This document shows positions 5,901 to 57,746 of a stretch of 64,000 nucleotides of DNA, one piece after another. The DNA lies in assembly GCA_958009085.1 (NCBI GenBank), contig OY253671.1, forward strand, positions 992,001-1,056,000, in the 5' to 3' direction. Origin of the DNA: Protoeuglena noctilucae (lineage: Eukaryota). The translations under genes and the position numbers were made by a program. The notes beneath the pieces were generated by a model. That model ran no database searches and was not told where the DNA came from. It worked only from the letters and a program-made list of their open reading frames with translations. Numbering within the stretch: the stretch's first letter is position 1; every line of letters starts with the position of its first letter.

Positions 5901-8900
5901 TAGTGGTGAGCGAGTCGGGGCGTGGCGTGGGCGACCCACAGCTGCAGTTTGTGGATGAGGATGGGAAACGCAAGCAGGGCGGGGAGGGTGGGCAGAGTGG
6001 CAGGGTGGGTGGCGTGGTGATAAGTGAGTCGGGCCGAGGTGTGGGCGACCCACAGCTGCAGTTTGTGGATGAGGATGGGAAACGCAAGCAGGGCGGGGAG
6101 GGTGGGCAGAGTGGCAGGGTGGGTGGCGTGGTGATAAGTGAGTCGGGCCGAGGTGTGGGCGATGCTCGGCTGCAATTTGTAGATGAGGATGGGAAACGCA
6201 AGCAGGACGGGGAGGGCAGAGAGGGTGACAGGGGTGGGGTGGCGGTGAGCGACTCGGGAAGGGGTTTGGCTGAACCTGAGCTGCAGTTTGTAGATGAAGA
6301 TGGGAAACGCAAACAAGGCGGGGAGGTTGGGCAGGTTGACAGGGCGGGTGGGGTGGTGGTGAGCGAGTCGGGGCGAGGCTTGGGCGACCCACAGCTGGGC
6401 TTTGTGGATGAGGATGGGCAGCGCAAGCAGGGCGGGGAGGGTGGCAGGGGTGGGGTGGTGGTGAGCGAGTCTGGGCGTGGCGTGGGCGACCCACAGCTGC
6501 AGTTTGTGGATGAGGATGGGCGGCGCAAGGGCGGCCAGCAGGGCAGCGATGGCACGGCCCCTGAGCCTGGCCGTGTGCGAGTGGACGTGGATGGTCCCAC
6601 AGATGGCTCCATTGGCCTTACTCTGCTGGACTCCGATGCTCCCAAACCTGGCCAGGGCGAGGGCGGCGTGGGTGCTGCTGCGGCCAACGTCGTGGTGTCG
6701 ACCGACGCTGAGCAGGTGAGTTGCACAGCGTGTGCAAACAAGCGAGCGGCTGGGTGCGAGATGCCCCGCGGTGTGCTGTTGAGCACGAAGGCAGTGGCCT
6801 GCAGCCACCTGTGCATGCTGTGCGTGGCTGCAGGTGGATGCCAGCGGGCAGCCGGCTCCCACCGAGCCTCCGCCGCGCAAGCGGGGCATGTGGGTCTTGA
6901 TCGACGGGGTGTGGACGTGGATTGAGGAGGGCGACCCACTGTGGGAGGCCCTGATGAACGCCAAGCCGAAGCAGCAGGTGGCAGAGGGCATCTCAGACCT
7001 TCTCAAGGACCTTCGTGATAAGCCCGCGGATGCCCCGAGCGTGGCGGAGGGCCAGGTCTCTGTGGATGGGCCTGAGATTGAGGCGGAGGTGTCGGGGCAG
7101 GCGGGCGAGGGTGGAGGGGCAGGCGAGGGAGAGGGTGAGATGGTGGGGGAGGTGCTGGAGATGGTGGGGGAGGAGGTAGAAGAGTCGGAGGAAGAAAGCA
7201 TGGACGAGGATGAGGGTGTGGATGAGGAGGGCGACGAGGAAGGCGACGGCGAGGGTGGGAGCGACGAGGAGGGCGCCAGTGTCAAGAGCGAGGTGAGGGA
7301 ACTGGAGCGAGGAGGCACAGCAAACTTGTGGAAACTAAGCTCTCGCTTTGCTGAAGATGAGCTTGGTGGCATGCGACGCCGCGTCGTGAGGCTATGCGGG
7401 GGCGAGAAGAGCAGCGTCATTGTGTGCTTGCAGCGGATCCCTGGGCGGTGGGTCATGCGGAACGGAGAGTACTGCTGGAAGGAGCAGGCGAGGCGTGCGG
7501 GTGGTGCATGGCTCCTGGGCGCTTGCGGGTTTCCGAAGCTATGTAACTCCATAGTATAGGTCATGGTGCATGCCGTTTGCGTCTGTGCAGGGCGAGGTGT
7601 GGACGGAGGACGAGGAAGAGGGCGACGGAGAGGGCGAGGATGGGGATGGGAAGAAGAAGAAAAAGCGAGAGGACGGCCCCCCGCAATTCACGCAAGTGGA
7701 GCTGCAGCGTCCGGAGGTGCTGGACGTCGTGGCGGTGCAGTCGGTGAACGTCAAGCCCAAGAACAAGCTGAACGTGACGATCGTCAACGCGGAGAGCGCC
7801 AGGGTGGAGGTGCAGGTCATCCAGGCCAGCGGCAACCGCACCACGCACGTCATACTGGTGAGAGCGCGAGGGGGCTGGCAATGCCGGGCGTGGTTGCCAC
7901 AGCCAGAGCATAACGCGTGACGCCCTATGCCGCATGCCGGTCACATGCCAGTCGTTGCGTAACACATCAGCTAATTTGTCGTTTTTGTGTCGCCCTCGCA
8001 GGGACCCAAGCGGAAGTGGAAGGGCCGCCTGGCCGCGGGCACCTGGTTGGCGCTCGTCAACCTGTCTGACGGCAGCGACCCGCTCTTCTTCGAGGAGACG
8101 CTCGTCCCCAGCTCCTTCGCCACTCGCACCAAGGCACGTGGAACATACGGGCGGGTACAGCAATGACACGGGGTCATGCTAGTTACTAAGCGATGCGTTG
8201 TGGTTTACCCATTGTGGTTGCCCCACAGCCGAGGGTTGCGTGATCTCAATAACCTGACGAACCCTTGCGTGACTGCAGAAGAGGCACCCACCAGGTGCCA
8301 GCGCGCGCACGTGCTGGATGGTGCCGCACGAGGGGCGCAGGGGCTACGACGTGCGGCTCGAGGTCCGCCTGGTGTCAGGTGCGAGGACAGTCATACCTGT
8401 CACCTCACCGCCTGGGGTGCAAGCGCGGTGCAAGGCCCTGGCCGTTGGATTGCTGGCATACAGAAAATGGCTTGAATTTGTCTCTTGGTTTGACATGACC
8501 CCTGCCAGGTCTCGCAGCACCGCCACGATCAGTCCATGCGCCCGCCCCCGCCCGCAGCCATCGACGGGCGGCTCCTCCCCATCGGCTTCCCTCACAAGGG
8601 CGACCTCGAGGGCCCCGAGGTGATTGAGTTCACGAACGTCAACAGCACGGGCAAGATCGACACCCGCACCCGCGTCGTGTTCCGCAACACCTGCTCCTAT
8701 CCCGTGGAGATCGAGTACGTCGACCACGAGGGCAAGACCGCCCGGGAGCTGACCCTGAAGCCCATGGCCATGTTCAGGACGACCGTCGATATGGGATCAT
8801 GGCGCAGGTGATGACACCGATACCTGACCGTGGTTCTGTGCGGGCTTTTCCTCGCTGGCTCAGTGGCTTGCGCTGGAAGCAGGGGGCTGGCACTGATGCG

Positions 8901-9237
8901 AACGAACAGCGGTGCCGTCGCTCTCTCGGCACCTGGGCACCTCATCTGCCACGCCGCCACGCTCCCACGCAGGCCGGTCAAGAGCGGTGACGCGGACGGC
9001 AAGACCAAGCTGTACTTCGAGGAGATCATGGACTATACGGGGCCGGGCTTCCCCGCGTACACGCCCAAGGGCGCCTCCCCGCGGGTGTTCTGGATGGCGC
9101 CTTACAAATCCGACCAAATGTGGGAGCCCAAGCTGTACATCCGGCCGACCAAGACCGTGAAGGCGGCGGTCATCGACGTCGACCTTTCCGCTTCCCAGGA
9201 CATCGGCTTCCTTTCGCTGCTCATGATGAACTCCTGA
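2993..9237 (+). CDS. Large multi-exon repeat protein: Cys/Gly-rich N-terminus, three VHL-beta-like domains, Gly-rich and 38-aa tandem repeats, Trp-motif repeats
   Basis: Exons join in frame via GT-AG and GC-AG introns (e.g. 7488-7590, 8134-8278). Starts MGKGILSSCRACCRSCCCC. Three homologous ~120-aa domains at ~3440, ~7730 and ~8620. Ends LLMMNS*. Confidence 0.7.
5025..5132 (+). repeat. 30-bp coding tandem repeat (GKGGSGLGER-type, ~3.5 copies)
   Basis: gggcaagggtgggagtggcttgggcga repeated with period 30. Confidence 0.9.
5890..6530 (+). repeat. ~114-bp coding tandem repeat, 6 copies (GGVVVSESGRGVGDPQLQFVDEDGKRKQGGEG)
   Basis: Near-identical units starting near 5927, 6041, 6155, 6266, 6381 and 6482, all within ORF 5843..6925. 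Confidence 0.95.
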
Positions 9238-9412
9238 GCTGCCTGGCTGTGTTGTGCGCGCTGTGCGCTCCAGAGATACGCGCATTGCGGAGAGCGGACC
9301 GCTCCGGCTGCCTGGGCATTCAAATAGATAGTCGGGCAGCTAGCTCTGAGTCTAAATCTTCTGCATCACGAGGGCCCACATAGGCTGGAAAAACGAGGCA
9401 CGAGTCAACGCA

Positions 9413-11218
9413 TCACGCAAACGCGGCGGCGAGTACTGCGCCCAGCAACGCCGCAGCCACGGCCGGCGCGGCGCAGGCGCTCGGCGTGCTGGCGGGCGTG
9501 GTGTTGGTCCCGGTGGGGGAGCTCGGCCCGGATTTGATCGGGCTCGAAGCTGCAGGGGTAGCCGAGGAGCCGGACGGCGCGCTGGCCACCGTGGCGCCCA
9601 TGCCTCCCTTGAGCAGCGGCGCCTGGGACGCAGACCAGCAGGGGCACCACAGCGTGAACTGGATGGAGCCCTGCGAGGTGGTGTACGTCTGGGCAGTGGA
9701 GGAGCACTCGGAGTAGAGAGCCTTGCACTGGGCCAGGGTCTGTGTGGCGCCGTTGCCGTAGCAGCCCAGCGTGAATGGGCCGATGTCCTGGATGTGGTAG
9801 TGGTAGAAGGGCGTCGTGGGCACGGTGCCGTCGGTCTTGGGCGCCAGGCCGATGTGCCCGCCGCACGCGTCCAAATCCGTGGGGGTCGCGGAGGTCGACT
9901 CGCGGACGCCGTAGATGCCGTAGCCGTCCAGCGCGACGCCGACGAGGTTTGAGTGGCCGGAGGTCGAGTGGTCCACTGCGGGGGTAGGCAAGTGGAATCG
10001 CAAGTTTCAAATTCGGACCCATCGCGTGCGTGGAGCCAGGCGGCGGCTGATATGGGGTGACTCACCGCACGTCATGGAGTGGTGGAAGTGGTAGGGGCTT
10101 GCGTGAGCGCCGCAGCTGTCCGGCAGCATGCCTGTGATGACGTTGGACGTCCCGCACTCGTAGTCGAGCTTGGCCTCGCACGTGGGCACGTCCATGCCGG
10201 CGGGGCAGACCCCGGCGTTTACGGTGCAGGCCTGGTTGGCGGTGAAGCCGGCCTCGAGGGGACCGTAGATGACCATGCCTCCCTGTGAGAACGTGCACAG
10301 GCGTGCATGGCTCACGCGTGGCTCATGTAGGCTCCGCAGGCGTGGCCGAGCAGGTGGACGCTGCCAAGTGGGTGCGGTGCCGTCACGCCAAGCGCCTCGG
10401 GTGTGGGGCTCACAGGCGCTTCATGGCTGCACGTCACTCGCCTTGTTCGTCGTCACGTCCCACGAGTAGCCGACGGTGCCCAGCAGGGGCGCGCCATGTG
10501 CACCCGTGGCGAAGGCGGGGTCAGGGATGGTCTGGCTGGTGCACTGCGAGCGGAGCGGGGCAAGTTGAGGCCTGGCGTCGGGCACTCGTTCGCCGCAACA
10601 CGCCTGGCGCATCCACCCGCCCTCACCGTGGGGGACGGGTTGCCCTTGCTCCCGTAGGCGTAGTGAGGGCAGATGTTGGTGACCAATGTGCCCGTGAATC
10701 GTCCGTTGGACCAGGTCAAGCCCGAGGAATCAAAGTAGTTGCCGGATCCGTCGGAAGGGCACGGGGAAGACACGGAGGGGCAGGCCGTGCTCGTCGAGGA
10801 GCCGGTGCCGTGCGTGAAGGCCGGCACGGAGCCGTTCGTCTGCATGTGCATCCCTGTGCCGCCTCCGGGAGCGCCGCCGGGGGGCTGCGCGACGCAGCCT
10901 GCAAGCGAAACACTCGCCAGCTTGGGGCAGGCCAGCCGGGTCCTCGGAGCAACCTCCGGGACGGGCGCTGCTCCTGATTTGCAGCTCTATCAATGCACGC
11001 ACATCAGATAAACAAATTTCTGCCCGATGTGCGCCCGATTCCGCGTCCGGGGCGGTCAACGCGGCGAAACATGCTTGGGGCGCGCTGCGCCCGCTCGGGG
11101 CCCCGTTACGGCGTGCACTCCCTGTCAGAGACAGGGATCCCCATTTGTCGCGCAGCTCACCCACGGACATGAGCGCGGCGAGCGCCGCAACGGAAAGGGC
11201 AACGGAAAGGGCAATCAT
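9413..11218 (-). CDS. Secreted YHYH-domain protein, probably GPI-anchored
   Basis: Signal peptide MIALSVALSVAALAALMSV. Motifs HASPYHFH, GHSNLVGVALDGYGIYG, DLDACGGH and FYHYH. Ser/Thr/Pro-rich stalk and hydrophobic C-tail AVAAALLGAVLAAAFA*. Confidence 0.8.
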
Positions 11219-18036: not shown

Positions 18037-20943
18037 CTATGCGAGCTGGAGGACGCGGAGCAGGCCGGTGCTGTTGATCGCTGCCAGGTACCCTGCCTCC
18101 TGGTCCCACTCCTGGCTGCCAGGCCACCAGGCGACCGCAGACACGAACGGCTCCGATGCGCCTGCGACGGGCACGGCAGTCGGTGCGCGTAAGCCCCATG
18201 CCCTGCTTCGCGTCGTGCCATGCGCCGCCACGTCTGCCGCGCAAGTCACCTCGGGCGCGGGGCCGCTCGTCGTCGACGTCGCTGCCGGCATCGGCGGCCG
18301 TGGGCCGCTTGAAGCCGTGCCGCAGCATGGGCTTGGAGACGCCGTGGGAGTAGACGACGACCTCGTCCGCCTCGGAACCCGTCGCGATGTGCGAGGCGGA
18401 CACGGAGAGCCCCACAAAGTTGCGCGTGTTCTTGTGGCCCTGGTACGTCCTCACGCACTGCAAGCGCAGCCACAGGGAGCCCCTTGCGACGCCAGAGTTG
18501 GAGAGAACAACAGCGATTTCATCCCATGTGCCGCATCTAGCATCGCCCTGCCCCTCGGCCCCACCTCCGACGACCGCAGGCTCCACAGCTTCAGCGTGGA
18601 GTCGGTTGAGGCGCTGAGGACGTGATCGGGGTCCGGAAACCTGACGTAGGAAATGGCTTTGCTGTGCCCGGAGAGCGTGTGCGTGAGCTCCGGCACCGAC
18701 AGGTTCCGGAGATCGGCGATCCTGCGGGGGGCGCGCATGATCGGAGAGCGACATCATATCACACAACGTGTCAGGCCACCACAGCCACCATGGCATCGCA
18801 TGCAGACGGCTCGCTCGCCTCAGAGAGTGACTGGCCGAACCCATGGCGACGCGGAAGGCCGGACCGGGGGAGCAGGCCACTGACAGCACGTTGGCCCCCA
18901 CTGACGCCTGTCCCTGGGGAGCCATGGGTGCTCGCAGGTCCCACACCCTGCGCATAAGTCAACAGCGTCCCATCTCTACTCACGCGCGCTGTGATGTTTG
19001 CCTGCACCAGCTCCCCATGCAGGAGCAGTTCCCCTCCGCCACACGCGGCCCCTGCTCGCCTGGCAGTGCCATCGTCCGACCCCGTGACGAGCACGTTGGC
19101 GTCGTGATGGGAGAAATCAACGGACCACACGCGTTTGTCGTGCCCGCCCAACCGCAGGGCTTGCCTCCCCGCCCCGAGATCCCACAGGGCCAGGCCCCCA
19201 GCATACTCTGCCGTCACCAGGCGCCCCTCGTCCGCACGTGCCCAGCAGAGCGACGACAGCTTCGTGCCCGCGTCCAGCACCGCCGCCACGTCCTCCCCAG
19301 GCGCACCGACACTCGCGCACAGGGCCCGGTGGTCAAACAGGACCACTTTCTGCAGACACAGGGCAAAGTGCAACACTGTCTGTCGCGGCAGCCACCTCAG
19401 CGTTTCCAGGACGGGCATTGGGCGCAGCACGGAGCTCGCCTGGAATACCCCGCAGACGCCAGACGCCAGCAGGCGCCCAGTGCAGTTGTAGTCCAAAGCG
19501 CTCACGACAGCTCCCCGGGGCGCGAACGCGCAGTGGTCGACCTCGGCAACCACGCGCAGCTCGGCGAAACGGGTGTGAGCGCAGAAGATCCTGCAGCGAC
19601 GGAGCGGAGGCATATGAGGGGCGTGAGTCACACGTGAGGCGGCGTGGGCATACGCGGAGTGAAAGCAAGGCTCGAAGAGAAGTGACATGTCAGAATGGTT
19701 TGAGGTCATTGCGCCAGGGTGGGGCCGCACCTGGAGAACGCGTCCCAACCCTGGACCCCGCGACTGGAGAGGCGCAGCTTGTCGTAGTGCTGCTCCAACT
19801 CCTCGAAACTCTCGGAGAGGACCGCCGATCGCGCGTCCCTCGTTTGGTCCCCATCGCTCACCGCAACCGCCGCTGCAATCAGGCCAAGCAGCGGTGAGCG
19901 AGGGAGCAACCCATGGGTCACGATGCCATTGAATAGGCCAATCAAGCGTCGAAATGCAGCTCGTTCGCGACTCACCCGCCGTGTCGAGAGCCCCGCCACG
20001 GTCCGCCAAGGCCCGCACTCCCAGCCTGCGAGCGGCACCCTTCGTTAGCTTGGCTGCCGGCTCGGGCGGCTGCTTGTGAGTGGCCAAGAGGGCTGCAGGC
20101 AGCGACGCGCACCTGCGCTGCGCGTTCGCGAGCTCCTGCGCCCGGCTGTGCTCCCGGTCCTTCAGGATGCGGACCTCTTTTAAACGCTCCATCACGTTGG
20201 CGAGGTCCCGGCCAATCACGCCCAGAGCCCCATCGATGCCGCGGAGAGAGCCCTCCTCCGACTCCAAACGAGCCTCGAGGAACCTGCGGAGAGGCCACAT
20301 CTCCGGCTCGCGCAGGCCCTGGCTGGGATTCAGGAGATTTCACCCGCACGTGCTTCGCGCCGGCTCACTTGAGGAGCAGGTGCAGGGCGGCGGACTTGTC
20401 GTCGACCTCAATCCTCCGCTTCCGCTCTTCCAACACGCGGATGGCCTCCGTGAGGTCCTCGGCCGACAGCTCGCCCACCTCGCTGCCGTAAAGCAGCTCC
20501 CGCAGCTGCTCGGCCGCCGTGGGCCGCCGCTCCTGGCGCCGCGCCGCCTCATGGACCTCGTCCGATATACGCGCGAGGGAATAGTTAGGGAATATCCGGT
20601 CTTGCGTCAGAAAGGCAGCGCAGGACGGGCACGTCTGCCGGGTCTCCAAATGCTGCGGCAGGCGAGGCCCAGGAGCGCCTCCGATGGCGCTTCGCATCCG
20701 GTATTCCGCGCGGTAACGTGGTTTGCCGAATCTGAGGGGTAGCCGGCGAGCCTAAGCCCGCCGCAATCGCGGCCGGCGCGCCGACGGATGGGCGCACGAT
20801 TGGCCCGCGGGGCGCCTCACCTTGGCGATGCATTCGTGGCAGAAACTGTGACCACAGGGTGTCACGAAAGGGTCCTGGAGCGGACTAATGCATATCGGGC
20901 AGTCCAGGGCGTTCTCCCTCGAACTCGCGGGTCCCGTCAACAT
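18037..20943 (-). CDS. COP1: COP1-like RING / coiled-coil / WD40 E3 ubiquitin ligase
   Basis: RING CPICISPLQDPFVTPCGHSFCHECI...CPSC. WD40 repeats GHDKRVWSVDFS, GHSKAISYVRF, SASTDSTLKLW, GHKNTRNFVGLS. C-terminus AINSTGLLRVLQLA*. Confidence 0.9.
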
Positions 20944-25758: not shown

Positions 25759-25828
<70 letters not shown>

Positions 25829-43307: not shown

Positions 43308-46268
43308 ATGTCGGTGGCGGGGATCGATTTGGGGAATGACGCGTCCTGCGTGGCCCTCGCGCGGAAGCGCGGGGTGGACGTGCTGATGAACAAGGAGTCC
43401 AAGCGGGAGACGCCGAGCGCGGTGGCCTTCGGGGCCAAGATGCGGTCCTTCGGCGGGGACGCGGCGTCTGGCCGCGCGATGAACATGCGCAATACTATCG
43501 TGGACATCCGGAGGTTCCTGGGCAAGCCATTCCGCGCGCCCGATGTCCAGAAGGACGTCGCGCTGGCCCCGTTCAAGGTGCGCATCGCCGCCGCGCGCAC
43601 TCCCTCGCTCGGTGCAGTTCTTTCACTCCGAAGCTCGCACGCGGCCCGCATCGAGGGATCCGAGCCGCTCGGCGCGGCCCGGCCCTTCCCTGTGGGCGGC
43701 ATCGCCCAGGCTCCGCCGCGTCGCAGCTGCGCGCGCGGAGTCGCGATGCATGCGGGGAGGGGTTGCTCTCGCGCACGCGGTGGCGTGCGCTGCGTCCGGG
43801 AAGGCGGGGAGCGGTGGAGCCCCCGGGGCGCGTCTCCGGACGCTTCCAGCCCTCGCCGCGCCGCGTCATGCGCCCGACCGCATTGCCCTGTGCGCAGGTC
43901 GTGGAGGGCCCCCGCGGCAACTGCGCCGTCGAGGTCGACTTCCAGGGCGAGACGCAGGTGTTCTCGATGGAGAAGGTGGCGGCCATGGTGCTGGTCGAAA
44001 TGAAGAAGATCGCCGAGGCGGACCAGGGCTCCGAGATCACCGACTGCGTGCTCGCCTGCCCCGTCTACGCCACGGACGCGGAGCGGGCGGCCATGGTCGA
44101 CGCGGCGCGCATCGCGGGCCTGACCCCGCTGCGGATCGTGAACGAGAACACCGCCACCGCGCTGGGTTACGGCATCTACAAGACGGACCTGCCGGAGGAC
44201 AAGCCCGTGCACGTCGCGATCGTCGACTACGGCCACGTCGGCATCCAGGTCTCGGTCGTCGCCCTGACCCGCACGGGGCTGCGTGTGCTCGCCCACTCCT
44301 GGGACGTGTCGTGCGGCGGCCGCGCGCTGGACTGGGCGCTGTTCGAGATGGCCCGCGGGGAGTTCCGCGCCAAGACCAAGCTCGACGTCCTCGAGAACAA
44401 GCGCGCCACCCTGCGCCTGCTCCTGGCGGTCGAGAAGTGCAAGAAGGCGAGACCGCCCTCTGCCCTGCGTGCGCCCAACGCTGACGAACCGCCGCCGGCT
44501 GCGCCCCCGACGCGAACGATCCACGTAACGTCGCTCGCAGGTCCTCACTTCGAACCCCCTGGCGCCCCTCTCGGTCGAGTGCCTGATGGAGGACCGGGAC
44601 TTCAACATCATGGTGGCGCGGGAGCAGTTTGAGGGCCTCTGCCAGGCGTCTTTCCAGAGCGCGGAGGGCGCCATGCGCAGGGCCCTGGAGCTCTCGGGCC
44701 TGCCGGCCGAGGAGGTGGCCGTGGTGGAGTGCGTGGGGGGCTCGTCGCGCATCCCGGCCTTCGCCGGGGCGGTGCGCGCCGTCTTCGGCAAGGACCCCTC
44801 CCGCACCCTGCACACCAAGGAGTGCGTCGCGCGCGGGTGCGCCCTCCAGTGCGCCATCCTCTCGCCCATCTTCCGCGTGCGCGACTTCGACGTCCAGGAC
44901 TCGGTGCCTCTCCCGGTCGCCATCACGTACGACAACCCGGAGCCCAAGGACGGGCAGGGCCCGGTCGTCACGCAGACGGGTGCGTTGCGCGGCCGCTCCC
45001 GGCTCCGCCAGCCACGGCACACGCAGCCCTTTCTCTGTCGCGGCAACGTGCGCCTTTACTCCGCCATCCGCGCAGTGTTCAAGCGCGGCTCGCCCTTCCC
45101 GCTGTCGGTTAACCTCACGCTGCACCGCCGGGAGCCCTTCCCGGTGCGCGTGCACTACGCGGAGGACGCGGAGCTGCCGGAGGGGTACCCCCGCGAGCTG
45201 GGGACGTACCACGTGGGCCCGCCCATCCCGGTGCCCGAGGGGCAGGAGAAGGCCAAGCTCAAGGTGAAGCTGGGCCTGAACCTGCACGGCATGGCGTCCG
45301 TGGACGGGTGCGCGGCGGAGGAGGTCAAGGTGGTGCAGGAGGAGGTGCCGGCGGACAAGGCGGAGGACAAGGCGGGGGCGGAGGGGGGTGCGAAGGAGGG
45401 CGAGGAGGCGGCCGCGGCGGACGGGGCGGCTGCTGGCGCCGAGGCCAAGAAGGTCGACAAGACGGTGGTGAAGAAGACGCCCGTGCCGGTGGCGGCGGAG
45501 GGCGCGGCGGGCCTGACGCCGGCGGAGCTGGAGAAGGCCAAGGAGCACGAGTTCGACCTGGCGCTGCGGGACCGGGTGCAGGAGGAGACGAACAACGCCA
45601 AGAACGACCTGGAGGCGTACATCCTGGCGATGCGGGGGCGGCTGGGCGATGCGCTGGCGCCATACGTGACGCCGGGGGCCGCCGAGCACCTAATGGGGGA
45701 GCTGAACAAGGCGGAGGACTGGCTGTACGGGGACGGGGAGGACACGAGCAAGGGGGCGTACCTGGAGCGGCTGGCGGGGCTGCGGGCGATGGGTGATCCG
45801 GTGGAGGCGCGGGCGAGGGAGGACGCGGAGCGGCCGGGGGCGGCCGCGGCGCTCGAGGCGACGTGCCGGCAGTTCCTCGAGTCGGCCGCGTCCACGGCGC
45901 CCGAGCTGGCGCACATCGGCCCCGAGGACCGGGGCCGCGTGCGGTCAGAGTGCGAGGCGGCGCCGGTGTGGCTGCAGGAGAAGCAGGCGCTGCAGAGCGC
46001 GCAGCCCGCGCACGCGGACCCCGTGCTGGTCTGCAAGGACATCGCCAAGAAGGCCGAGACCGTGCAGCGGGTGTGCCAGCCCATCCTGTCCCAGCCACCG
46101 CCCGCGCCGGCCGCGCCCGCGCCCGCCTCGGCCAAGGAGGAGGACCGCGAGGCGATGGACACCGAGGAGGTGAAGCCGGCCAAGGAGGGCGCAGAGGCGA
46201 TGGAGGTGGAGGAGGGCGAGCGGGACGCGGCAGGCGGGGCCACGGGGGACAAGATGGAGACCGACTAA
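43308..46268 (+). CDS. HSP110: Cytosolic Hsp110 (HSP70-14/15-like nucleotide exchange factor)
   Basis: MSVAGIDLGN, NKESKRETPS, NENTATALGYGIYK, EKCKK|VLTSNP, VGGSSRIP, ECVARGCALQCAILSP, acidic loop, EDWLYGDGED. Confidence 0.95.
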
Positions 46269-46334
46269 GGGACTTGGCTTTGGGGTCGCGAGGGCTCTGC
46301 CGCGCTGCGGGCTGGCCCGCGCTGGAGATGCCCG

Positions 46335-46339
46335 TGTAA
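46335..46339 (+). promoter_or_regulatory. TGTAA chlorophyte-type polyadenylation signal
   Basis: TGTAA about 66 nt downstream of the Hsp110 stop codon. Confidence 0.55.
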
Positions 46340-46766: not shown

Positions 46767-49700
46767 ATGACGGTGGTGGTTGGCGTCGCGGAGGCCGGCG
46801 CAGGTGCCAAAGCGTGGCTCGATGCGTTCCGTTCCAAGCACGGCCGCTTGCCCAAGCCTGGGGTCGACCACTTGCCGGCGGACGTAGCTGCATGGCTACG
46901 GTCGGCCGTGTGTGGTGGCGTCGCGAGGGCGCCTGTCGCAGCTGCGGAGGGGCGCGAGGAGTGCATCGCGGCATCTGATGACGAAGACGATTGCGCTGCG
47001 CCGGGGCCCTCCTCCCGCGCCGCCGCCGCTGCATTCGGAAGACGAAAGCAAGCGTGGTCGGGATCGCGCACCGGCATCGGGGACGGCGGGGGGCACGCCC
47101 GGGTCACCGCCAGCGACATGCGCGCTGCGCGCAGCGCAGGGAGGTCCGCGAGCGAGCTGGCGGCAGAGCGCGCGCGCAGGGAGGCGCGCCGCATGGCGGA
47201 AGCGCGAGGGAAGGAAGCGCGCGAGTCTGCGCGTTTCAACGACGCGTCTCTGCGGGCGCAGGAGCCTGCCTGCAGTGTCGACCCTGCAGTCGCCGATGCC
47301 GACTGGGCTCCGGAGCCAGCTGCCGCCGCGCGGACGAGCCAAGTCCCCGCGCCTAAGGCTGCGACCCGCCACTTTCCGCCAGAGGCGCTGCCCGAGCCGG
47401 GTGGCCTCGGTGCTCAAGCACCATGCGAGACCACGGCAGGTCCCAACACGTCTGTGCACGTCCCCAGCGCAGTCCAGGCACGCGTCCGCCCGTGTCCGCC
47501 GCGCCCGTCCCAGCCTTCAAAGCGGTCCGACGTGTGCACCAGCAGCGAGGCCTCGGACGGCAGCCACGTATCGGGAGACGACTTGGGGGGCGACGAGAGC
47601 GGCAGCGACACGCAAGACGGAGAGGGAGATGACGGGGAGGAGGGTGGGGTGGCGGGCGAGAGTGCGCGGGCCCGAGAGCCCCGCGCTCGGCCGCGCCCGG
47701 CACCACGCGTTTTGGCGGAGGTGTCGGTGGCGGACCTGCCGGGCCTCACGGTGGCAGAGCTCAAGATGGAGCTGAAGATGCGGTCCATGCCGCAGTCGGG
47801 GCGGCGTGCGGAACTCGTGGAGCGGCTCACGGCTGCGATCGAGGGGCGGGCACTCGCGCCGACCGAGCCGCGGACCGAGGCGGTTTCGGGGGCGGGCAGC
47901 GCACGCGGACCGGCGCCGCTGGTGAGGGCTCGCAGGGCGTGTGTGGGGCAAGGCCATTTTCGCTGCCTGGTTGGAGCGACGGCTGATGCGTCCCCTTGTG
48001 CTTGTCCCTCCCCAGTCCCGCAACTTCGTTCGGTTCAACCTCAAGAAGCCAAAGCAGTTTAAGTCGGGTCCCGGTGGCGGACTGCGTTTAAAGCGCAAGA
48101 GCAAGTTCCGTGCCAAGCCCCTCTCGTGAGTCCCATGGTTGTTCTGGCAAGTGTCACAGTCTGGCACAGGCTGGCGGTGGTGTGCGTAACGCAGGTGTTT
48201 GCCCCCGCAGCCAGCCAGGCGTGGGCGTCAAAGGTCGGCTGGGCGCGGTGAACGCTCTGGAGGAGGTGTCGACTCTCGCGGGCCGGGACGTGGCCCCGAG
48301 GCTCCTCTGCTTTGCGTGCGGCCAGCCGGGCCACTTTGCGCACTCGTGCCCCAACCGACTGGACGACGCGGGGCTCCCCGCCGCCGAAGCAGACGGAGCC
48401 GACGCGGCGCATCGAGAGAACGGCCAGGACGCGCCGTCCGACCCAGCGAGCGCGCCGGGCGGCCCCCTTGCGATGGCGGCCCCGGGGCGCGAGGAGGTGC
48501 CCGGGCCCCAAGGGGACGCCTTCCGCCGCGTGCGCGCGCTCGCGGAGAGCGTGGATTTCGACCAGCCGGGTGGCGTCTCCGAGGCCGACCTGCTGCCTGT
48601 CCTCCAGGGTGTCTTCGGTCACGGTGCTTTCCGCCCGGGCCAGGTTGCCGTGCTGCGCCGGGTGCTATCCCCGGGCAGCCGCACGCTGGCCGTGCTTCCC
48701 ACGGGCTCCGGGAAGAGTCTGCTGTACCAGCTCCCCGCCGCGCTGGGCCGCGGCATGGTGGTCGTCGTGTCGCCCCTGACGGCGCTCATGCGCGACCAGG
48801 TCCGCGTCCTGCCACCCGGCCTCCGCGGCGCGATGCTCGGGGGCGCGCAGAGGAAGGACGACTACTTCGCGGCGCTCGTCGCGTTGCAGAGGGGCGACGT
48901 CGACGTCCTCTTCATGGCCCCGGAGCGCCTGCAGAGCCCCTACACCCAGCGCATCCTCCAGGCCGTTCCTGAGGCGAGTAGCCAGCGCTAATGCCGCCTC
49001 ACTCAAGCCCACGGGAGGTTGCAGAGGCTTTTTCGCAGAGGACGTGTTGCGACTTTTGACCTGCCCTCGCCTGCTACCCGTTTAGCACCCTTGCCTTCCC
49101 AACCCCAGGGGCGCCGCCCGTCGCTGCTGGTGGTCGATGAGGCGCACTGCATCACCGAGTGGGGCCACAACTTCCGCCCGGCGTACCTGCGCGTCGGGTT
49201 GGTCGCCGCTTCCCTCTTCCCCCAAGCTTCCATCCTCGCCCTGACCGCCACCGCCACACGCGCCACGGAGGTCGCCATCTGCGCCGCCCTGGGCGTCCCA
49301 AACAGGTATGGCTCGCCATGCACTGCGCTGCGCCGTCCTCGCCCGCCCTGCGCCCAAGCTCGCACCTCCTCCTTGCCTCAGCGGCGTCGTGCGTGACGCC
49401 TCGCTTCCCGCCAACCTGCGCCTGCACGTCGAGCGCATCCGCGGGGACGCCCTGGGCGCCGACGCCCGCGGCCGCCTCACGTGGCTCCTCACCGAGGGTC
49501 CTCTGCGCGAGCGGCACTCGGTCCTCGTCTACGCGTCCCTCAAGCAGCAGGCCGACGACCTCGCCAAGCACCTGTACGTGTCGGGCGTGCCGTGCCTGGC
49601 GTACCACGCCGGCAAGGCGCCCCAGGAGAGGGCGCGCGTCGAGTCGCTCTTCGCGGCCGGCAAGCTCCGCTGCGTGGTGGCCACCGTCGCGTTCGGCATG

Positions 49701-51752: not shown

Positions 51753-53531
51753 ATGGCTCGGACGCATGCACTTTCGGGGGGAATGTTGGCCTCCCCGTTG
51801 CGTAAGCTCCTCCGTCCTTTTCTGCCCACCGTCACGTCGCAACAGCACTGTCTCACTTTCATCACAGGACGGGGAGCCGGAGGACGCGGGAAGGGCGCGC
51901 CCGCGCCCCCGCGGGTGTCGCGTCGGTCCCCCGATCCACAGGAGGCGTCGCCGTCCTCGAGCGGCTCGCCCATCCTGTCGGGGGATTACCCAGCTGGGTT
52001 TCCGGGCACCGTCCCCTATCCTCCAGGCGGGACGTCCGGTGCGTCGAGGCGTGGCGCGGGCAGAGACATGCGCATCGCGCGCGTTTCTTCGCTCCCTGCG
52101 CCAACGCGAGCCCTGTCCCTCGCTGCAGGCGCGTCGCGGGTGAATATCAACGTGGAGGACTTCCCTGTGGCCCTGCGCAAGGAGTGCGTGCTCTTCTACG
52201 CTCCAGAGACGGAGCGGCTGGCGAGGAAGATAGCTGCCCTGTCCCCGTCGGGTGAGGCGGGGCCGACGCCGACGCCTCGCGGAGCACGCACCCGTGCGCA
52301 GGCGATCGACTGCCGCTCGCGACTTCTCGCAGTGAGCCTGGGCGACATCTGCTGGGCCAAATTCTCGGATGGATTCCCGAACTTGTTTGTGAACGACGCT
52401 CTCGAGGTCCGCAACAAGCACGTGGCCTTCCTGGCGTCCTTCCACCACCCCGCCGTCATCTTCGAGCAGCTCTCCATCATCTACGCTCTGCCCAAGCTCT
52501 TCGTCTCCAGCTTCACCCTCGTGCTGCCCTTCTTCCCCACGGGGACCGCAGAGCGCATGGAGGTGGGGGACGGGACGATCTGGATGCGCGCACCTCGCAC
52601 TGCGGCTCGCGCGCGTGGCATCTGCCCCACCCTTGGTCCCGCAGAACGAGGGCGACGTGGCCACGGCCTTCACCCTGGCGCGCATCCTCTCCAACATCCC
52701 CCTGTCCCGCGGCGGGCCGACGTCCGTGGTCATCTTCGACATCCACGCCCTGCAGGAGCGCTTCTACTTTGGCGACACGGGTGCGCGCTGCGGTCACCAG
52801 CATGCGCCAGTGCGCGCCGCAGGGCACGAGGGTGCAGGGTCGTCACTGACACGTCTCCTCCCTCTCCCCACGCTCTCCAGTGCTTCCACTGTTCGAGTCC
52901 GGCATCCCCCTCCTTCGCCAGCGACTGCGGTCGATGCCAGAGTCAGGGCCCTACGCCATCGCCTACCCGGACGAGGGCGCGTGGAAGCGCTTCCACTCCC
53001 TCTTCGGGGACTACCCCGAGATCATCTGCACGAAGGCGAGCGCAGCGCCGGCGCCTGGCTCGAAAGCAGATGGGGCGCACGGCCGCGAAGGCTTCCTCGC
53101 GAGAGGCGCAGGTCCGGGACGGGGACAAGCGCATCGTGCGATTGAAGGAGGGGGACCCGACGGGCCGACACGTCGTGATCGTGGATGATCTGATTCAGTC
53201 GGGATCGACCATCATCGAGTGCCAGAAGCTCCTCAAGGCCCTGGGCGCACGGCAGGTGTCCGCCTACGCGACCCACGGCGTCTTCCCCAAGGTGCGGATC
53301 GGGGATGCGAGGCGAGCGGAAGCGCCTTACGCGTATCTGCGGCTGAGCGATCCTTCCGCGCGTCCGCAGCGGTCGTGGGAGCGCTTCAAAAGCACGGAGG
53401 AGGACGGGGATGGCTTTTCGTACGTGTGGATCACCGATTCGGTCAGCTTCACTGCAGAGGCTGTGGAAGGAAAAAAACCGTTCGAGGTCTTGTCGCTGGC
53501 GAGGGTCATCGCCGACACGCTGCAGATTTAG
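51753..53531 (+). CDS. PRS: Class II PRPP synthetase, copy A, with N-terminal transit-peptide-like extension
   Basis: [69 protein letters not shown]. Plant PRS3/PRS4 type. Confidence 0.93.
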
Positions 53532-56500
53532 GGGGCTGACACAGGCAGCCTGCGTGCCGCACGCCGATCGCGGGCAGACGAGGCCGGGCGTCCGATAGCG
53601 GCGCGCATTAAAGACGATGATCGTTCAAATGTGAAGGATTCGAGCCCAGATTCCGCGCTACTGAAGTGGAGAGGCCGCGCGACTGAGCCACCACAACTTA
53701 GTCTTCGCACTCGCCGTCCGCTGTCCACGGTGAGTCCCACAGCGCAACGTTTTGCAGGTGCGCTGCTCCTATGCTTAACTCTCACTTGGCGGCCCGCGAT
53801 GCCAGACAGCGACCTTCCTCGGACGCGGCGGCTCGTGACGGTGTTCACGCTCTGCGCCGCCCCCGGGACCTGGCCGGCGCACGGACCCGGCTGGAGAATA
53901 CCGCAGGATCGCGTGCATGTCATTCCTTGTCTTCTGAAGATGCCGCATCGCCCTTTCATCGCTCCCAGGATCTGTGCCGACCATGGCACACAAGGGCCCA
54001 CCGGGAGACCCCGCGGCGCATGCCGATGCGGCCCACCTCCACTCCGGTGAGAAGCACGCTAAAATACAAACCTTCTTCACGCTTGGCTGCCCACCACGGA
54101 GCCCGGGTCATCCTCGTGGCTGCACCTCCCTGTTCCTTCTGCCTTGCAGCCATGTCGCGCGTCAATCTCAAGGCGGAGGATTTCCCGGAGGTCCTTCGCA
54201 AGGACTGCATGCTATTTTACGCCCCGGAGATGGAAGGCCTGGCGCGGAAGATCGCTGCAGTTTCGCCTTCCGGTGCGGTGCTGCAAACTTCACTGGCCCC
54301 GCCGCCGCCGGCGCTTCACCGCCGATTCCGCGAGCGCTTTCACCTGCCTGCAGTTCGGTTGAGCAATATTCGCTGGGCCAAATTCGAGAGCGAGTTCCCC
54401 AACCTGTTCGTGGAGGACGCATTAGAAGTACGCAACAAGCACGTGGCCTTCCTGGCGTCCTTCCACCACCCCGCCGTCATCTTCGAGCAGCTCTCCATCA
54501 TCTACGCCCTCCCGCGCCTCTTCGTCGCCAGCTTCACCCTCGTGCTGCCCTTCTTCCCCACGGGGACCATGGAGCGAATGGAGGTGGGCGGGGCCAGGGG
54601 CCTGCTGCTGCCTCGCAGCCCTCGTGGCTGTGGCACGACAGCTGCGCGGAGAGTCGAGGCACCTGGCAGCGGCGCCGTCAAGGGGGCTTTCAGACTGCGA
54701 CACCGACACGCACGTTGCTCTGGATCGCAGAACGAGGGCGACGTGGCCACGGCCTTCACCCTGGCGCGCATCCTCTCCAACATCCCCCTGTCCCGCGGCG
54801 GGCCGACGTCCGTGGTCATCTTCGACATCCACGCCCTGCAGGAGCGCTTCTACTTTGGCGACACGGGTGCGCGCTGCGGTCACCAGCATGCGCCAGTGCG
54901 CGCCGCAGGGCACGAGGGTGCAGGGTCGTCACTGACACGTCTCCTCCCTCTCCCCACGCTCTCCAGTGCTTCCACTGTTCGAGTCCGGCATCCCCCTCCT
55001 TCGCCAGCGACTGCGGTCGATGCCAGAGTCAGGGCCCTACGCCATCGCCTACCCGGACGAGGGCGCGTGGAAGCGCTTCCACTCCCTCTTCGGGGACTAC
55101 CCCGAGATCATCTGCACGAAGGCGAGCGCAGCGCCGGCGCCTGGCTCGAAAGCAGATGGGGCGCACGGCCGCGAAGGCTTCCTCGCGAGAGGCGCAGGTC
55201 CGGGACGGGGACAAGCGCATCGTGCGATTGAAGGAGGGGGACCCGACGGGCCGACACGTCGTGATCGTGGATGATCTGATTCAGTCGGGATCGACCATCA
55301 TCGAGTGCCAGAAGCTCCTCAAGGCCCTGGGCGCACGGCAGGTGTCCGCCTACGCGACCCACGGCGTCTTCCCCAAGGTGCGGATCGGGGATGCGAGGCG
55401 AGCGGAAGCGCCTTACGCGTATCTGCGGCTGAGCGATCCTTCCGCGCGTCCGCAGCGGTCGTGGGAGCGCTTCAAAAGCACGGAGGAGGACGGGGATGGC
55501 TTTTCGTACGTGTGGATCACCGATTCGGTCAGCTTCACTGCAGAGGCTGTGGAAGGAAAAAAACCGTTCGAGGTCTTGTCGCTGGCGAGGGTCATCGCCG
55601 ACACGCTGCAGATTTAGGGGGCTGACACAGGCAGCCTGCGTGCCGCACGCCGATCGCGGGCAGACGAGGCCGGGCGTCCGATAGCGGCGCGCATTAAAGA
55701 CGATGATCGTTCAAATGTGAAGGATTCGAGCCCAGATTCCGCGCTACTGAAGTGGAGAGGCCGCGCGACTGAGCCACCACAACTTAGTCTTCGCACTCGC
55801 CGTCCGCTGTCCACGGTGAGTCCCACAGCGCAACGTTTTGCAGGTGCGCTGCTCCTATGCTTAACTCTCACTTGGCGGCCCGCGATGCCAGACAGCGACC
55901 TTCCTCGGACGCGGCGGCTCGTGACGGTGTTCACGCTCTGCGCCGCCCCCGGGACCTGGCCGGCGCACGGACCCGGCTGGAGAATACCGCAGGATCGCGT
56001 GCATGTCATTCCTTGTCTTCTGAAGATGCCGCATCGCCCTTTCATCGCTCCCAGGATCTGTGCCGACCATGGCACACAAGGGCCCACCGGGAGACCCCGC
56101 GGCGCATGCCGATGCGGCCCACCTCCACTCCGGTGAGAAGCACGCTAAAATACAAACCTTCTTCACGCTTGGCTGCCCACCACGGAGCCCGGGTCATCCT
56201 CGTGGCTGCACCTCCCTGTTCCTTCTGCCTTGCAGCCATGTCGCGCGTCAATCTCAAGGCGGAGGATTTCCCGGAGGTCCTTCGCAAGGACTGCATGCTA
56301 TTTTACGCCCCGGAGATGGAAGGCCTGGCGCGGAAGATCGCTGCAGTTTCGCCTTCCGGTGCGGTGCTGCAAACTTCACTGGCCCCGCCGCCGCCGGCGC
56401 TTCACCGCCGATTCCGCGAGCGCTTTCACCTGCCTGCAGTTCGGTTGAGCAATATTCGCTGGGCCAAATTCGAGAGCGAGTTCCCCAACCTGTTCGTGGA

Positions 56501-56943
56501 GGACGCATTAGAAGTACGCAACAAGCACGTGGCCTTCCTGGCGTCCTTCCACCACCCCGCCGTCATCTTCGAGCAGCTCTCCATCATCTACGCCCTCCCG
56601 CGCCTCTTCGTCGCCAGCTTCACCCTCGTGCTGCCCTTCTTCCCCACGGGGACCATGGAGCGAATGGAGGTGGGCGGGGCCAGGGGCCTGCTGCTGCCTC
56701 GCAGCCCTCGTGGCTGTGGCACGACAGCTGCGCGGAGAGTCGAGGCACCTGGCAGCGGCGCCGTCAAGGGGGCTTTCAGACTGCGACACCGACACGCACG
56801 TTGCTCTGGATCGCAGAACGAGGGCGACGTGGCCACGGCCTTCACCCTGGCGCGCATCCTCTCCAACATCCCCCTGTCCCGCGGCGGGCCGACGTCCGTG
56901 GTCATCTTCGACATCCACGCCCTGCAGGAGCGCTTCTACTTTG
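52640..56943 (+). repeat. Tandem segmental duplication, period 2086 bp (52640-54857 = 54726-56943)
   Basis: The sequence and the ORF track repeat with a +2086 offset. Identity breaks at 52639/54725 and 54858/56944. Confidence 0.95.
54152..55617 (+). CDS. PRS: Class II PRPP synthetase, copy B (chimera: 5' from copy C, 3' from copy A)
   Basis: Start [19 protein letters not shown] is identical to copy C. From the NEGDVATAF exon onward it is identical to copy A. Confidence 0.85.
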
Positions 56944-57746
56944 ACGACACGGGTGCGTGCTGCGGGCGCTAGCACGCGCCAACGCGCGCCACAGGGCACC
57001 GGGGTGCAGGGTCATCGCTAACATGTCTTTCTCTCTCTCTACTTTCTTCAGTGCTTCCTCTCTTTGTTTCTGGCGTGCCCCTGCTCCGTCACCGCCTGCG
57101 CCTCCTCCCTGACAGCGACCGCCTGGCCATCGTGTACCCTGACGAGGGTGCTTGGAAGCGCTTCCACACCATGTTCACCGACTTCCCCGAGATCATCTGC
57201 ACCAAGGCGAGCGGTCATGCGGCGCGCTCGAGGGCGGCGCATGTCGAGGGCTGGCAGCTGCAAGGTGGGCGAGGTGCGAAGTTTGACTCTGACCCGCGGT
57301 TCCTGAAGCGCAGGTGCGTGAGGGCAACAAGCGCATCGTGCGGCTCAAGGAGGGGGACCCCAATGGCCTCCACGTGGTGATTGTGGACGACCTCATCAAC
57401 ACAGGCGGCACCATCATCGAGTGCCAGAAACTGCTCAAGGCCCACGGAGCCAAGCACGTCTCCGCCTACGCCACGCACGGGGTGTTTCCGCAGGCGAGGT
57501 CTCGCGGCACGCTGGCATGGGCAGCCTTGCGGTGCGCATGTGTGCAGGCGCTGACAGACCGTCGGGCTTCCTTGTGCCCCGCAGCGGTCGTGGGAGCGTT
57601 TCAAGAGCGAGGATGAGAACGGAGACGGGTTCTCGTACGTCTGGATCACGGACTCGGTCAGCACCACGGCAAGCGTGCTGGAAGGCCGCAAGCCCTTTGA
57701 GGTCCTCACCCTCGCGCAAGTCATCGCCGACACACTGCAGATCTAA
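56238..57746 (+). CDS. PRS: Class II PRPP synthetase, copy C, no transit peptide
   Basis: Same exon structure as copy A with a divergent 3' half ([25 protein letters not shown]). Ends LQI* (TAA). Confidence 0.92.

What the first reader, a model, noticed from the sequence alone, without database searches (positions are those of the whole stretch)
7488..57584. Exceptionally frequent GC-AG introns across many unrelated genes
Seen in sequence: the reading frame, and often a conserved motif, is restored only with a GC donor in at least 16 introns. These are 7488-7590 and 8134-8278 (repeat protein); COP1 donor 19059 (SDDGTAR|VWDL); PPR donor 24538; GNL1 31081-31191; three in DHODH (donors 36077, 35522 [16 protein letters not shown], 34748 GGLSG|RPL); 5'-nucleotidase 40037-40124; DSP 42805-42896; Hsp110 44447-44540 (EKCKK|VLTSNP); RecQ4 48974-49108; PRS 53036, 55122, 57207 and 57494. 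Nearly all read AG|GC(G/A)AG. That is roughly 15% of about a hundred introns (rough count). Established: GC-AG is about 1% in most eukaryotes. Inference: a lineage-wide relaxation of 5' splice-site recognition, perhaps driven by extreme GC pressure or an altered U1/U6 snRNP.
Basis: partly seen in the sequence, partly recalled or inferred. Interest (0 to 1): 0.8.

Follow-up and report, generated by a model that had tools for sequence, protein, structure and literature searches.

The report
Abundant GC-AG introns, GC-rich green alga
About one intron in five in this GC-rich marine green-algal DNA really does start with GC instead of GT, but this is a pattern already described for other very GC-rich algae and looks like ordinary splicing under strong GC pressure.

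Summary
Spliced RNA contigs and transcript-derived proteins fix 33 introns in the window; 10 of them are GC-AG, and none has an equivalent GT-AG placement. This set covers 7 of the 16 claimed introns. An eighth (55122) is a 100% identical copy of one of them.

Of the other 8 claims:
- one fits an RNA contig's length exactly;
- three are fixed by homology;
- three rest only on my own gene parse;
- one (8134-8278) is doubtful.

The window-wide estimate from my parse is 25 GC-AG of 123 credible introns (20%). Among the RNA joints shown it is 3 of 13.

The 5'-nucleotidase intron lies on the minus strand. The PRS donors 53036, 55122 and 57207 are one intron position in tandem paralogues, and two of them sit in a perfect 2086-bp duplication.

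GC donors are stricter than GT donors, not looser: 9 of 10 match all five flanking consensus positions, against 1 of 23 GT donors. Both classes carry about one mismatch.

High GC-AG shares in GC-rich algae are in print (Aureococcus 39.6%, Micromonas pusilla 22.2%), with a canonical U1 5' end. This is therefore a new member of a known kind. Earlier scan notes covered only Ostreococcus GT-AG donors, not GC-AG abundance.

The parts
42805..42896 (+). GC-AG intron, dual-specificity phosphatase gene (claimed)
   Evidence: RNA contigs of X1 and X4 skip it. The only canonical placement is GC..AG.
44447..44540 (+). GC-AG intron, Hsp110 gene (claimed)
   Evidence: RNA contigs of X1 and X4 skip it. The only canonical placement is GC..AG.
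38467..38575 (-).
   Evidence: RNA contigs of X1 and X4 skip it. It reads GC..AG on the minus strand only.
40037..40124 (-). GC-AG intron, 5'-nucleotidase gene (claimed; the donor is at 40124 on the minus strand)
   Evidence: X1 record 3 resumes at 40123. Its 1140 letters between the two pieces equal the predicted exons. The joint itself was not among the rows shown.
35970..36077 (-). GC-AG intron, DHODH (claimed)
   Evidence: Exact threading of the transcript-derived protein P0001.
35368..35522 (-). GC-AG intron, DHODH (claimed)
   Evidence: Exact threading of P0001.
34645..34748 (-). GC-AG intron, DHODH (claimed)
   Evidence: Exact threading of P0001.
18948..19059 (-). GC-AG intron, COP1-like RING/WD40 gene (claimed)
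   Evidence: Exact threading of the transcript-derived protein P0242.
19350..19439 (-).
   Evidence: Exact threading of P0242.
18722..18818 (-).
   Evidence: Exact threading of P0242.
53036..53111 (+). GC-AG intron, PRPP synthetase copy 1 (claimed)
   Evidence: Residues 84-349 of P0130 thread copy 1 exactly.
55122..55197 (+). GC-AG intron, PRPP synthetase copy 2 (claimed)
   Evidence: It is a 100% identical copy of 53036-53111 inside a perfect 2086-bp duplication, so it is not independent.
57207..57313 (+). GC-AG intron, PRPP synthetase copy 3 (claimed)
   Evidence: It is the same intron position as 53036. Gap-free alignment to P0130 fixes the junction, and the only canonical placement is GC..AG.
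57494..57584 (+). GC-AG intron, PRPP synthetase copy 3 (claimed)
   Evidence: Alignment to P0130 fixes the junction. The same intron in copies 1 and 2 starts with GT. Copy 3 has A at +4 where copies 1 and 2 have C.
48974..49108 (+). GC-AG intron, RecQ-type helicase gene (claimed)
   Evidence: Pfam DEAD positions 2-109 lie in the upstream exon and 118-163 in the downstream exon. An in-frame stop lies 15 nt after the donor, and the best GT alternative has a donor score of -4.2. No transcript evidence was seen.
7488..7590 (+). Predicted GC-AG intron, lineage-specific repeat protein (claimed)
   Evidence: Own parse only. The frame shifts if it is unspliced, and the best GT alternative has a donor score of -2.6. 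The exon has no relative other than its own genomic ORF, P0287.
8134..8278 (+). Doubtful GC-AG intron, repeat protein (claimed)
   Evidence: The donor is the atypical GCACGT. A GT donor 21 nt downstream, used with the same acceptor, also keeps the frame.
24435..24538 (-). Predicted GC-AG intron, PPR protein gene (claimed)
   Evidence: Own parse only. The frame shifts if it is unspliced, and the best GT alternative has a donor score of -0.7.
31081..31191 (+). Predicted GC-AG intron, LSG1/GNL1-like GTPase gene (claimed)
   Evidence: Own parse only. An in-frame stop lies 54 nt after the donor. A metagenome scan for a spliced copy found only a weak relative.
785..900 (-).
   Evidence: Own parse only.
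3824..3918 (+).
   Evidence: Own parse only.
5178..5339 (+).
   Evidence: Own parse only.
10283..10441 (-).
   Evidence: Own parse only.
21633..21725 (-).
   Evidence: Own parse only.
26156..26275 (+).
   Evidence: Own parse only.
52634..56886 (+). Perfect tandem duplication of a 2086-bp unit within the PRPP synthetase gene cluster
   Evidence: 100% identity at shifts of +2086 and -2086. It makes two of the claimed donors copies of each other.

Best explanation
These are ordinary major-spliceosome (U2-type) introns whose second base is C instead of T. In this 67% G+C green-algal genome, substitution pressure towards G and C wears down every donor site until it carries about one mismatch to the U1/U6-pairing consensus AG|GTRAG. 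In most introns that mismatch sits at +4 or -2. In about one intron in five it sits at +2, and the other positions then stay perfect (AG|GC[G/A]AG).

Shown here: the GC-AG borders are used in RNA, the GC donors have a stricter context, and the mismatch load is equal in the two classes.

Inferred: the cause is mutation or gene-conversion bias acting against a fixed pairing threshold, with no change to the splicing machinery.
For: - Usage in RNA. Ten GC-AG introns are fixed by spliced RNA contigs or transcript-derived proteins, and none has an equivalent GT-AG placement.
- Stricter context. +4 is A in 10 of 10 GC donors against 10 of 23 GT donors (Fisher p = 0.002). All five flanking positions match in 9 of 10 against 1 of 23 (Mann-Whitney p = 8e-6).
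- Equal mismatch load. Against AG|GTRAG, validated GT donors carry 0, 1 or 2 mismatches in 1, 15 and 7 cases (mean 1.26); validated GC donors carry 1 or 2 in 9 and 1 cases (mean 1.10).
- Paralogue switch. The last PRPP-synthetase intron starts GTGCGG in copies 1 and 2 and GCGAGG in copy 3. The +2 T/C change therefore goes with a +4 C/A change.
- Not U12-type. No U12-type donor or branch box is found in 123 credible introns.
- Not a repeat family. No sequence families occur among the introns except the tandem PRS copies.
- Same size class. Median length is 104 nt for GC introns and 100 nt for GT introns.
- Parse control. Allowing GC donors gives a summed score of 2671 and recovers 31 of 33 validated introns. 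GT-only gives 2188 and recovers 18 of 33. Decoy donors GG and GA give 2254 and 2294, with 8 and 7 decoy introns against 25 GC introns.
- Literature. GC-AG shares are 39.6% in Aureococcus, 22.2% in Micromonas pusilla and 7.7% in a Chlorella, linked there to high G+C, with a canonical U1 5' end (PMC3033335, passages). Pelagophytes show 14-17%, attributed to G+C content (preprint passage). Compensation at the other donor positions is described in PMC1557818 (passages).
Against: - G+C content alone is not sufficient. Micromonas RCC299, at 64% G+C, has only 2.7% GC-AG introns (PMC3033335).
- C at +2 may be nearly neutral. Among donors with perfect flanks in my credible set, C at +2 outnumbers T by 23 to 13 (64%). 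This equals the intron C/(C+T) of 0.64. That is what +2 would show if T and C were nearly equivalent, which may need a more tolerant spliceosome than the human one. The figure leans on my parse, whose GC-donor matrix favours perfect flanks, so it is partly circular.
- The evidence base is narrow. Only one 64-kb window was available, and no snRNA or splicing-protein genes could be inspected.
- The transcript evidence is not fully independent. The RNA runs belong to one study, and the JGI-sourced proteins may come from related material.
- Not all RNA joints were seen. Only 15 of 38 joints were displayed.
Confidence: 0.7

Rival explanations
1. The spliceosome of this lineage has itself changed so that U and C at intron position +2 are nearly equivalent. 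The change could lie in a U1 snRNP protein such as U1C or LUC7, in an snRNA base modification, in U6 or in Prp8. GC pressure then only fills the space that this opens.
For: - In the credible set, donors with perfect flanks carry C at +2 in 23 of 36 cases, which equals the intron C/(C+T) of 0.64.
- Among validated donors with perfect flanks, 9 are GC and 1 is GT.
- G+C content alone does not explain the gap between Micromonas pusilla (22.2%) and RCC299 (2.7%). The authors themselves suggest base modifications or U1 snRNP proteins (PMC3033335).
Against: - GC donors still need perfect flanks (9 of 10), as in organisms with ordinary spliceosomes (PMC1557818).
- The 23:13 figure depends on a parse whose GC matrix favours perfect flanks.
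- The validated genes were partly chosen because GC introns were claimed in them.
- No component of the machinery could be inspected.
Confidence: 0.2
2. The GC donors are mis-called exon borders, and nearby GT donors are the ones really used.
For: - One claimed intron (8134-8278) has an atypical donor, and a frame-keeping GT donor lies 21 nt downstream.
- My parse produced one false GC intron (37637-37782) where RNA shows GT-AG at 37683-37782.
Against: - Ten GC-AG introns are fixed by RNA contigs or exact protein threading with no GT-AG placement.
- For the other claims, the best GT alternatives have donor scores from -4.2 to +0.5 against +6.6 to +7.5 for the GC donors, apart from 8134.
- A GT-only parse loses 15 of the 33 validated introns.
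Confidence: 0.04
3. The GC-AG introns are copies of a mobile intron family (introner-like elements) that carries a GC donor.
For: Recalled, not checked here: the two algae with the highest published GC-AG shares are also known for introner elements.
Against: - An all-against-all blastn of 123 credible introns gave 8 similar pairs. All of them lie within the tandem PRPP-synthetase copies.
- No dispersed repeats of 60 nt or more occur among the introns.
- Similarity between GC donors stops at +5 or +6.
Confidence: 0.03

Closest known systems
Abundant GC-AG introns of very GC-rich algae: Aureococcus anophagefferens 39.6%, Micromonas pusilla 22.2%, Chlorella sp. 7.7% (Iwata & Gotoh 2011, PMC3033335); Aureococcus 14-17% and Pelagomonas about 14% (bioRxiv 10.1101/2024.10.30.620910)
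   Same: - The genome G+C is about 65-70% (window 67%).
- The GC-AG share is an order of magnitude above the usual 1% (3 of 13, 10 of 33 and 25 of 123 here).
- Introns are short, and GC and GT introns have similar lengths.
   Different: - It is a different organism. The DHODH tree places it inside Chlorophyta with no close named relative. It is not Micromonas pusilla or Chlorella variabilis, since no named protein matches at 100% and the best named hit is about 50% identical.
- It is intron-rich, with about 6 introns per gene in this window.
- The share is known here for one window only, not genome-wide.
U2-type GC-AG introns of model eukaryotes (0.4-0.9% of introns; Sheth et al. 2006, PMC1557818)
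   Same: - The donor is GC and the acceptor AG.
- The rest of the 5' splice site fits the consensus better than in GT introns, which compensates for the +2 mismatch with U1.
- The acceptors look alike in the two classes.
   Different: - The frequency is 20-30 times higher.
- The local consensus has G rather than A at +3 (GCGAG; GTGAG or GTGCG).
GT-to-GC donor turnover in mammals (Churbanov et al. 2008, PMC2490688, abstract seen)
   Same: One homologous intron is GT in two PRPP-synthetase paralogues and GC in the third. This shows that the two states interconvert by point substitution.
   Different: - The direction of the change was not inferred here.
- That paper suggests selection for alternative splicing as the driver. 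Here base-composition pressure is the more likely driver.

Membership tests
U2-type GC-AG introns | The intron starts with GC, ends with AG, and is removed from RNA at exactly these borders. | tested here: met
   Ten introns are fixed by spliced RNA contigs or exact threading of transcript-derived proteins. Every equivalent placement was listed, and none is GT-AG.
U2-type GC-AG introns | The remaining donor positions fit the U1-pairing consensus better than in GT introns (compensation). | tested here: met
   All five flanking positions match in 9 of 10 GC donors against 1 of 23 GT donors (p = 8e-6). +4 is A in 10 of 10 against 10 of 23.
U2-type GC-AG introns | The intron is not U12-type: no RTATCC or GCATCC donor and no TCCTTRAY branch box. 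| tested here: met
   0 of 123 credible introns have either motif.
U2-type GC-AG introns | The donor is recognised by a U1 snRNA with the canonical 5' end. | not testable with these tools
   No genome is held and there is no snRNA gene in the window. In Aureococcus and Micromonas the putative U1 5' end is canonical (PMC3033335).
GC-rich algal genomes with abundant GC-AG introns | Genomic G+C is about 65% or more. | tested here: met
   Each 4-kb bin of the window is 65-71% G+C. Exons are 68.9% and introns 66.0%.
GC-rich algal genomes with abundant GC-AG introns | The GC-AG share is far above 1-2%, measured genome-wide. | tested here: inconclusive
   It is met within the window: 3 of 13 RNA joints, 10 of 33 validated introns, and 25 of 123 credible introns. 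The genome-wide share cannot be measured without the genome.
Introner-like mobile introns | The introns form dispersed families of similar sequence. | tested here: not met
   Only the tandem PRPP-synthetase copies match each other.

The most novel reading that the evidence does not exclude
In this alga a donor with otherwise perfect consensus may be indifferent to T or C at +2. C is found there in 23 of 36 such donors, the same share as C/(C+T) in intron DNA (0.64). If that holds genome-wide, the spliceosome of this lineage no longer distinguishes U from C at +2. That would point to a changed component (U1C/LUC7, U6 or Prp8 contacts, or an snRNA modification). It would also give a natural system for the unexplained GC-AG excess that Iwata & Gotoh called an enigma.
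Probability: 0.2. Interest if true: 0.6.

Novelty: new member of a known kind. Interest (0 to 1): 0.3.

Why it matters
Practical value: gene finders that allow only GT donors would mis-model many genes of this organism. A GT-only parse here lost 15 of 33 validated introns.

Biological value: the window adds an intron-rich chlorophyte to the short list of GC-rich algae where GC-AG introns reach 20% or more. It also gives a clean picture of a one-mismatch budget at the donor site. The phenomenon and its link to G+C content are already in print, so a specialist would not be much surprised.

Tried and rejected
- Whole genome: none is held. Genome-wide donor counts and a search for U1, U6, U1C, LUC7 and PRP8 were therefore impossible.
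- Rfam on the window found no family.
- Read laying displayed only 15 of 38 joints. The joints for GNL1 and RecQ4, if they exist, were not seen. X2 contigs run unspliced through introns that X1 and X4 remove, so X2 adds little.
- A search for a transcript-derived protein of PRS copy 3 found none at 100% identity. P0121 is a relative. P0130 matches copies 2/3 over residues 1-115 and copy 1 over residues 84-349, so it is a chimera relative to the window.
- A representative search with the repeat-protein exon found only its own unspliced genomic ORF, P0287.
- A metagenome scan with the GNL1 exon found only a weak 34-residue match, L001.
- Pfam gave nothing for the exons flanking the GNL1, PPR and repeat-protein introns or the other parse-only GC introns.
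- My first gene parse, with loose settings, chained the whole window into one gene. The final parse still merges neighbouring genes through tiny exons. I dropped 18 introns (8 GC) that touch an exon under 30 nt or exceed 330 nt, and one GC intron contradicted by RNA.
- Earlier scan notes, searched by genome, relatives and words, hold nothing on this genome. They hold only Ostreococcus GT-AG donor notes.
- PMC6310983 passages held nothing on algal GC-AG shares.
- The class of the organism was not resolved: the DHODH tree shows a polytomy inside Chlorophyta.

Full report
**What the window is.** The 64 kb are 65-71% G+C in every 4-kb bin and carry intron-rich nuclear genes. A DHODH exon finds core chlorophyte proteins at about 50% identity as its best named relatives. 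A maximum-likelihood tree puts the gene inside Chlorophyta in an unresolved position, next to an unnamed metagenome protein. Marine metatranscriptome runs hold the exons at 99-100% identity. No whole genome is held, and Rfam finds no RNA family in the window.

**Direct test with RNA.** I laid contigs of three RNA runs (X1, X2, X4, all from one study) and one DNA run (X10) on 30400-50399.
- Fifteen of 38 joints were displayed. Two occur only in DNA contigs, have 20-24-nt sides, and are not introns. Thirteen are RNA joints.
- Listing every equivalent placement gives 10 GT-AG and 3 GC-AG.
- The GC-AG joints are 42805-42896 (DSP, claimed), 44447-44540 (Hsp110, claimed) and 38467-38575 on the minus strand (new).
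- None of the three has a GT-AG reading, and X10 shows none of the joints.
- X2 shows only two of the 13 joints. Its contigs run unspliced through introns that X1 and X4 remove.

**Transcript-derived proteins.** The protein collection holds products of spliced contigs of this organism. I threaded each through the window, demanding an exact translation and listing all junction placements.
- P0001 (403 aa) gives 6 DHODH introns. Three are GC-AG at exactly the claimed donors (35970-36077, 35368-35522, 34645-34748) and three are GT-AG.
- P0242 (583 aa) gives 9 introns in the COP1-like gene. Three are GC-AG: the claimed 18948-19059, plus 19350-19439 and 18722-18818.
- P0130 (349 aa) is a chimera of the PRPP-synthetase copies relative to the window. 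Residues 84-349 thread copy 1 with 4 introns, including GC-AG 53036-53111. Residues 1-115 thread copies 2/3 with 2 GT-AG introns.
- Together with the RNA joints this makes 33 validated introns, 10 of them GC-AG. The genes were partly chosen because GC introns were claimed in them, so 30% is biased upward. The 3 of 13 from the RNA joints is the less biased figure.

**The remaining claims.**
- 5'-nucleotidase. The intron is on the minus strand (donor at 40124), not the plus strand. RNA contig X1 record 3 resumes at 40123, and its 1140 letters between 38465 and 40123 equal the predicted exons once the ambiguous end bases are counted.
- RecQ-type helicase. The flanking exons carry Pfam DEAD positions 2-109 and 118-163. 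A stop follows the donor after 15 nt, and the best GT alternative scores -4.2.
- PRS copy 3. Gap-free alignment to P0130 fixes both junctions (57207-57313 and 57494-57584), and only GC..AG is canonical there.
- Three claims (7488-7590, 24435-24538, 31081-31191) rest only on frame and site scores in my own parse. Searches for transcripts or relatives gave nothing.
- One claim (8134-8278) is doubtful. Its donor is GCACGT, and a GT donor 21 nt downstream also keeps the frame.
- The PRS donors are not independent. A 2086-bp unit is repeated perfectly over 52634-56886, so 53036 and 55122 are the same sequence. Donor 57207 is the same intron position in the third, diverged paralogue.

**Denominator.** I wrote a small dynamic-programming gene parser using codon log-odds, separate GT and GC donor matrices, an acceptor matrix and a length penalty. 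I trained it on the validated set and iterated it three times.
- It recovers 31 of the 33 validated introns. It also predicts every one of the 16 claimed introns.
- It merges neighbouring genes through tiny exons. I dropped 18 introns (8 GC) that touch an exon under 30 nt or exceed 330 nt, and removed one GC intron that RNA contradicts. I then added the two validated introns it missed.
- The result is 123 credible introns, 25 of them GC-AG (20%), or 24 of 117 after removing identical copies.
- Controls:

| Alternative donor allowed | Summed score | Credible introns | With the alternative donor | Validated introns recovered |
|---|---|---|---|---|
| GC | 2671 | 121 | 25 | 31 of 33 |
| GG (decoy, same matrix and penalty) | 2254 | 107 | 8 | 19 of 33 |
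| GA (decoy, same matrix and penalty) | 2294 | 113 | 7 | 18 of 33 |
| none (GT only) | 2188 | 104 | 0 | 18 of 33 |

- Most of the decoy GG introns (7 of 8) and one of the 7 GA introns are forced substitutes that share an acceptor with a real GC intron.

**What the donors look like.**
- All 10 validated GC donors read G|GC[G/A]AG.
- Nine of the 10 match -2A, -1G, +3R, +4A and +5G together, against 1 of 23 validated GT donors (Mann-Whitney p = 8e-6). +4 is A in 10 of 10 against 10 of 23 (Fisher p = 0.002).
- GT donors are mostly GTGAG or GTGCG.
- Against AG|GTRAG, GT donors carry a mean of 1.26 mismatches and GC donors 1.10 (validated set). In the credible set the means are 1.12 and 1.08. Both classes thus carry about one mismatch, and the GC class carries it at +2.
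- The last PRPP-synthetase intron shows the trade directly: GTGCGG in copies 1 and 2, GCGAGG in copy 3.
- Intron lengths do not differ (medians 104 and 100 nt).
- There are no U12-type signals in the 123 introns.
- The introns share no sequence family apart from the tandem PRS copies.

**Interpretation.** The simplest reading is ordinary U2-type splicing with a fixed pairing threshold, in a genome whose substitution bias pushes every tolerated position towards G or C. The same compensation is described for the rare GC-AG introns of human, mouse, fly, worm and Arabidopsis (PMC1557818, passages). GT/GC turnover at donors is known in mammals (PMC2490688, abstract).

One result leaves room for more. 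In the credible set, donors with perfect flanks carry C at +2 in 23 of 36 cases, the same as C/(C+T) in intron DNA, 0.64. That would mean near-neutrality of +2 in that context. The figure is partly circular, because my GC matrix favours perfect flanks.

**Comparison with what is known.**
- Iwata & Gotoh 2011 (PMC3033335, passages) report GC-AG shares of 39.6% in Aureococcus anophagefferens, 22.2% in Micromonas pusilla and 7.7% in a Chlorella, against an average of 1.3%. They link this to G+C content. They note that Micromonas RCC299 (64% G+C) has only 2.7%. They find the canonical U1 5' end in all three picoplankton genomes examined and call the origin an enigma.
- A 2024 preprint reports 14-17% in Aureococcus strains and about 14% in Pelagomonas, attributed to G+C content (one passage).
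- My literature searches found no report that I could tie to this organism, whose name I do not know.

I therefore rate the finding as a new member of a known kind.

Noticed in passing
window 52634-56886: A 2086-bp unit is repeated perfectly (2.04 copies) inside a cluster of three PRPP-synthetase genes. The middle gene therefore has the 5' part of the third gene and the 3' part of the first. This is the pattern expected from a very recent unequal crossover between two diverged paralogues, or from an assembly artefact.
   Followed up: partly
window 53292-53369, 55378-55455 and 57494-57584: The same intron position is GT-AG (GTGCGG) in PRPP-synthetase copies 1 and 2 and GC-AG (GCGAGG) in copy 3. 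The +2 T/C difference is coupled to a +4 C/A difference.
   Followed up: yes
window 3239-9237: A large predicted gene encodes a lineage-specific Gly/Glu/Asp-rich repeat protein. It holds 114-bp tandem repeats (5779-6543) and 30/90-bp repeats (4795-5184), and the strand has a strong G over C skew (0.34 in 4001-8000). One of its exons has no relative among 1.8 billion representatives other than its own ORF.
   Followed up: partly
window, all GT donors: GT donors have G at +3 in 93 of 98 credible introns and C at +4 in 30 of 98 (GTGCG). This resembles the GTGCG donors that earlier scan notes report for Ostreococcus.
   Followed up: partly
window 38682-39297, 40284-41243 and 43463-44039: Contigs of RNA run X2 run unspliced through introns that runs X1 and X4 remove. 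X2 therefore holds pre-mRNA or contaminating DNA of this organism.
   Followed up: no
window 42989-43126: A 69-bp direct tandem duplication (94% identical) lies between the phosphatase and Hsp110 coding regions.
   Followed up: no
window about 25750-25830: A (GT)n microsatellite lies just upstream of the ABC transporter gene. It reads as a run of Val-Cys in one frame.
   Followed up: no
window 36858-36939: An RNA-supported GT-AG intron lies upstream of the predicted start of the NUDIX gene (37023). The gene therefore has either a 5' UTR intron or an upstream coding exon that my parse missed.
   Followed up: no
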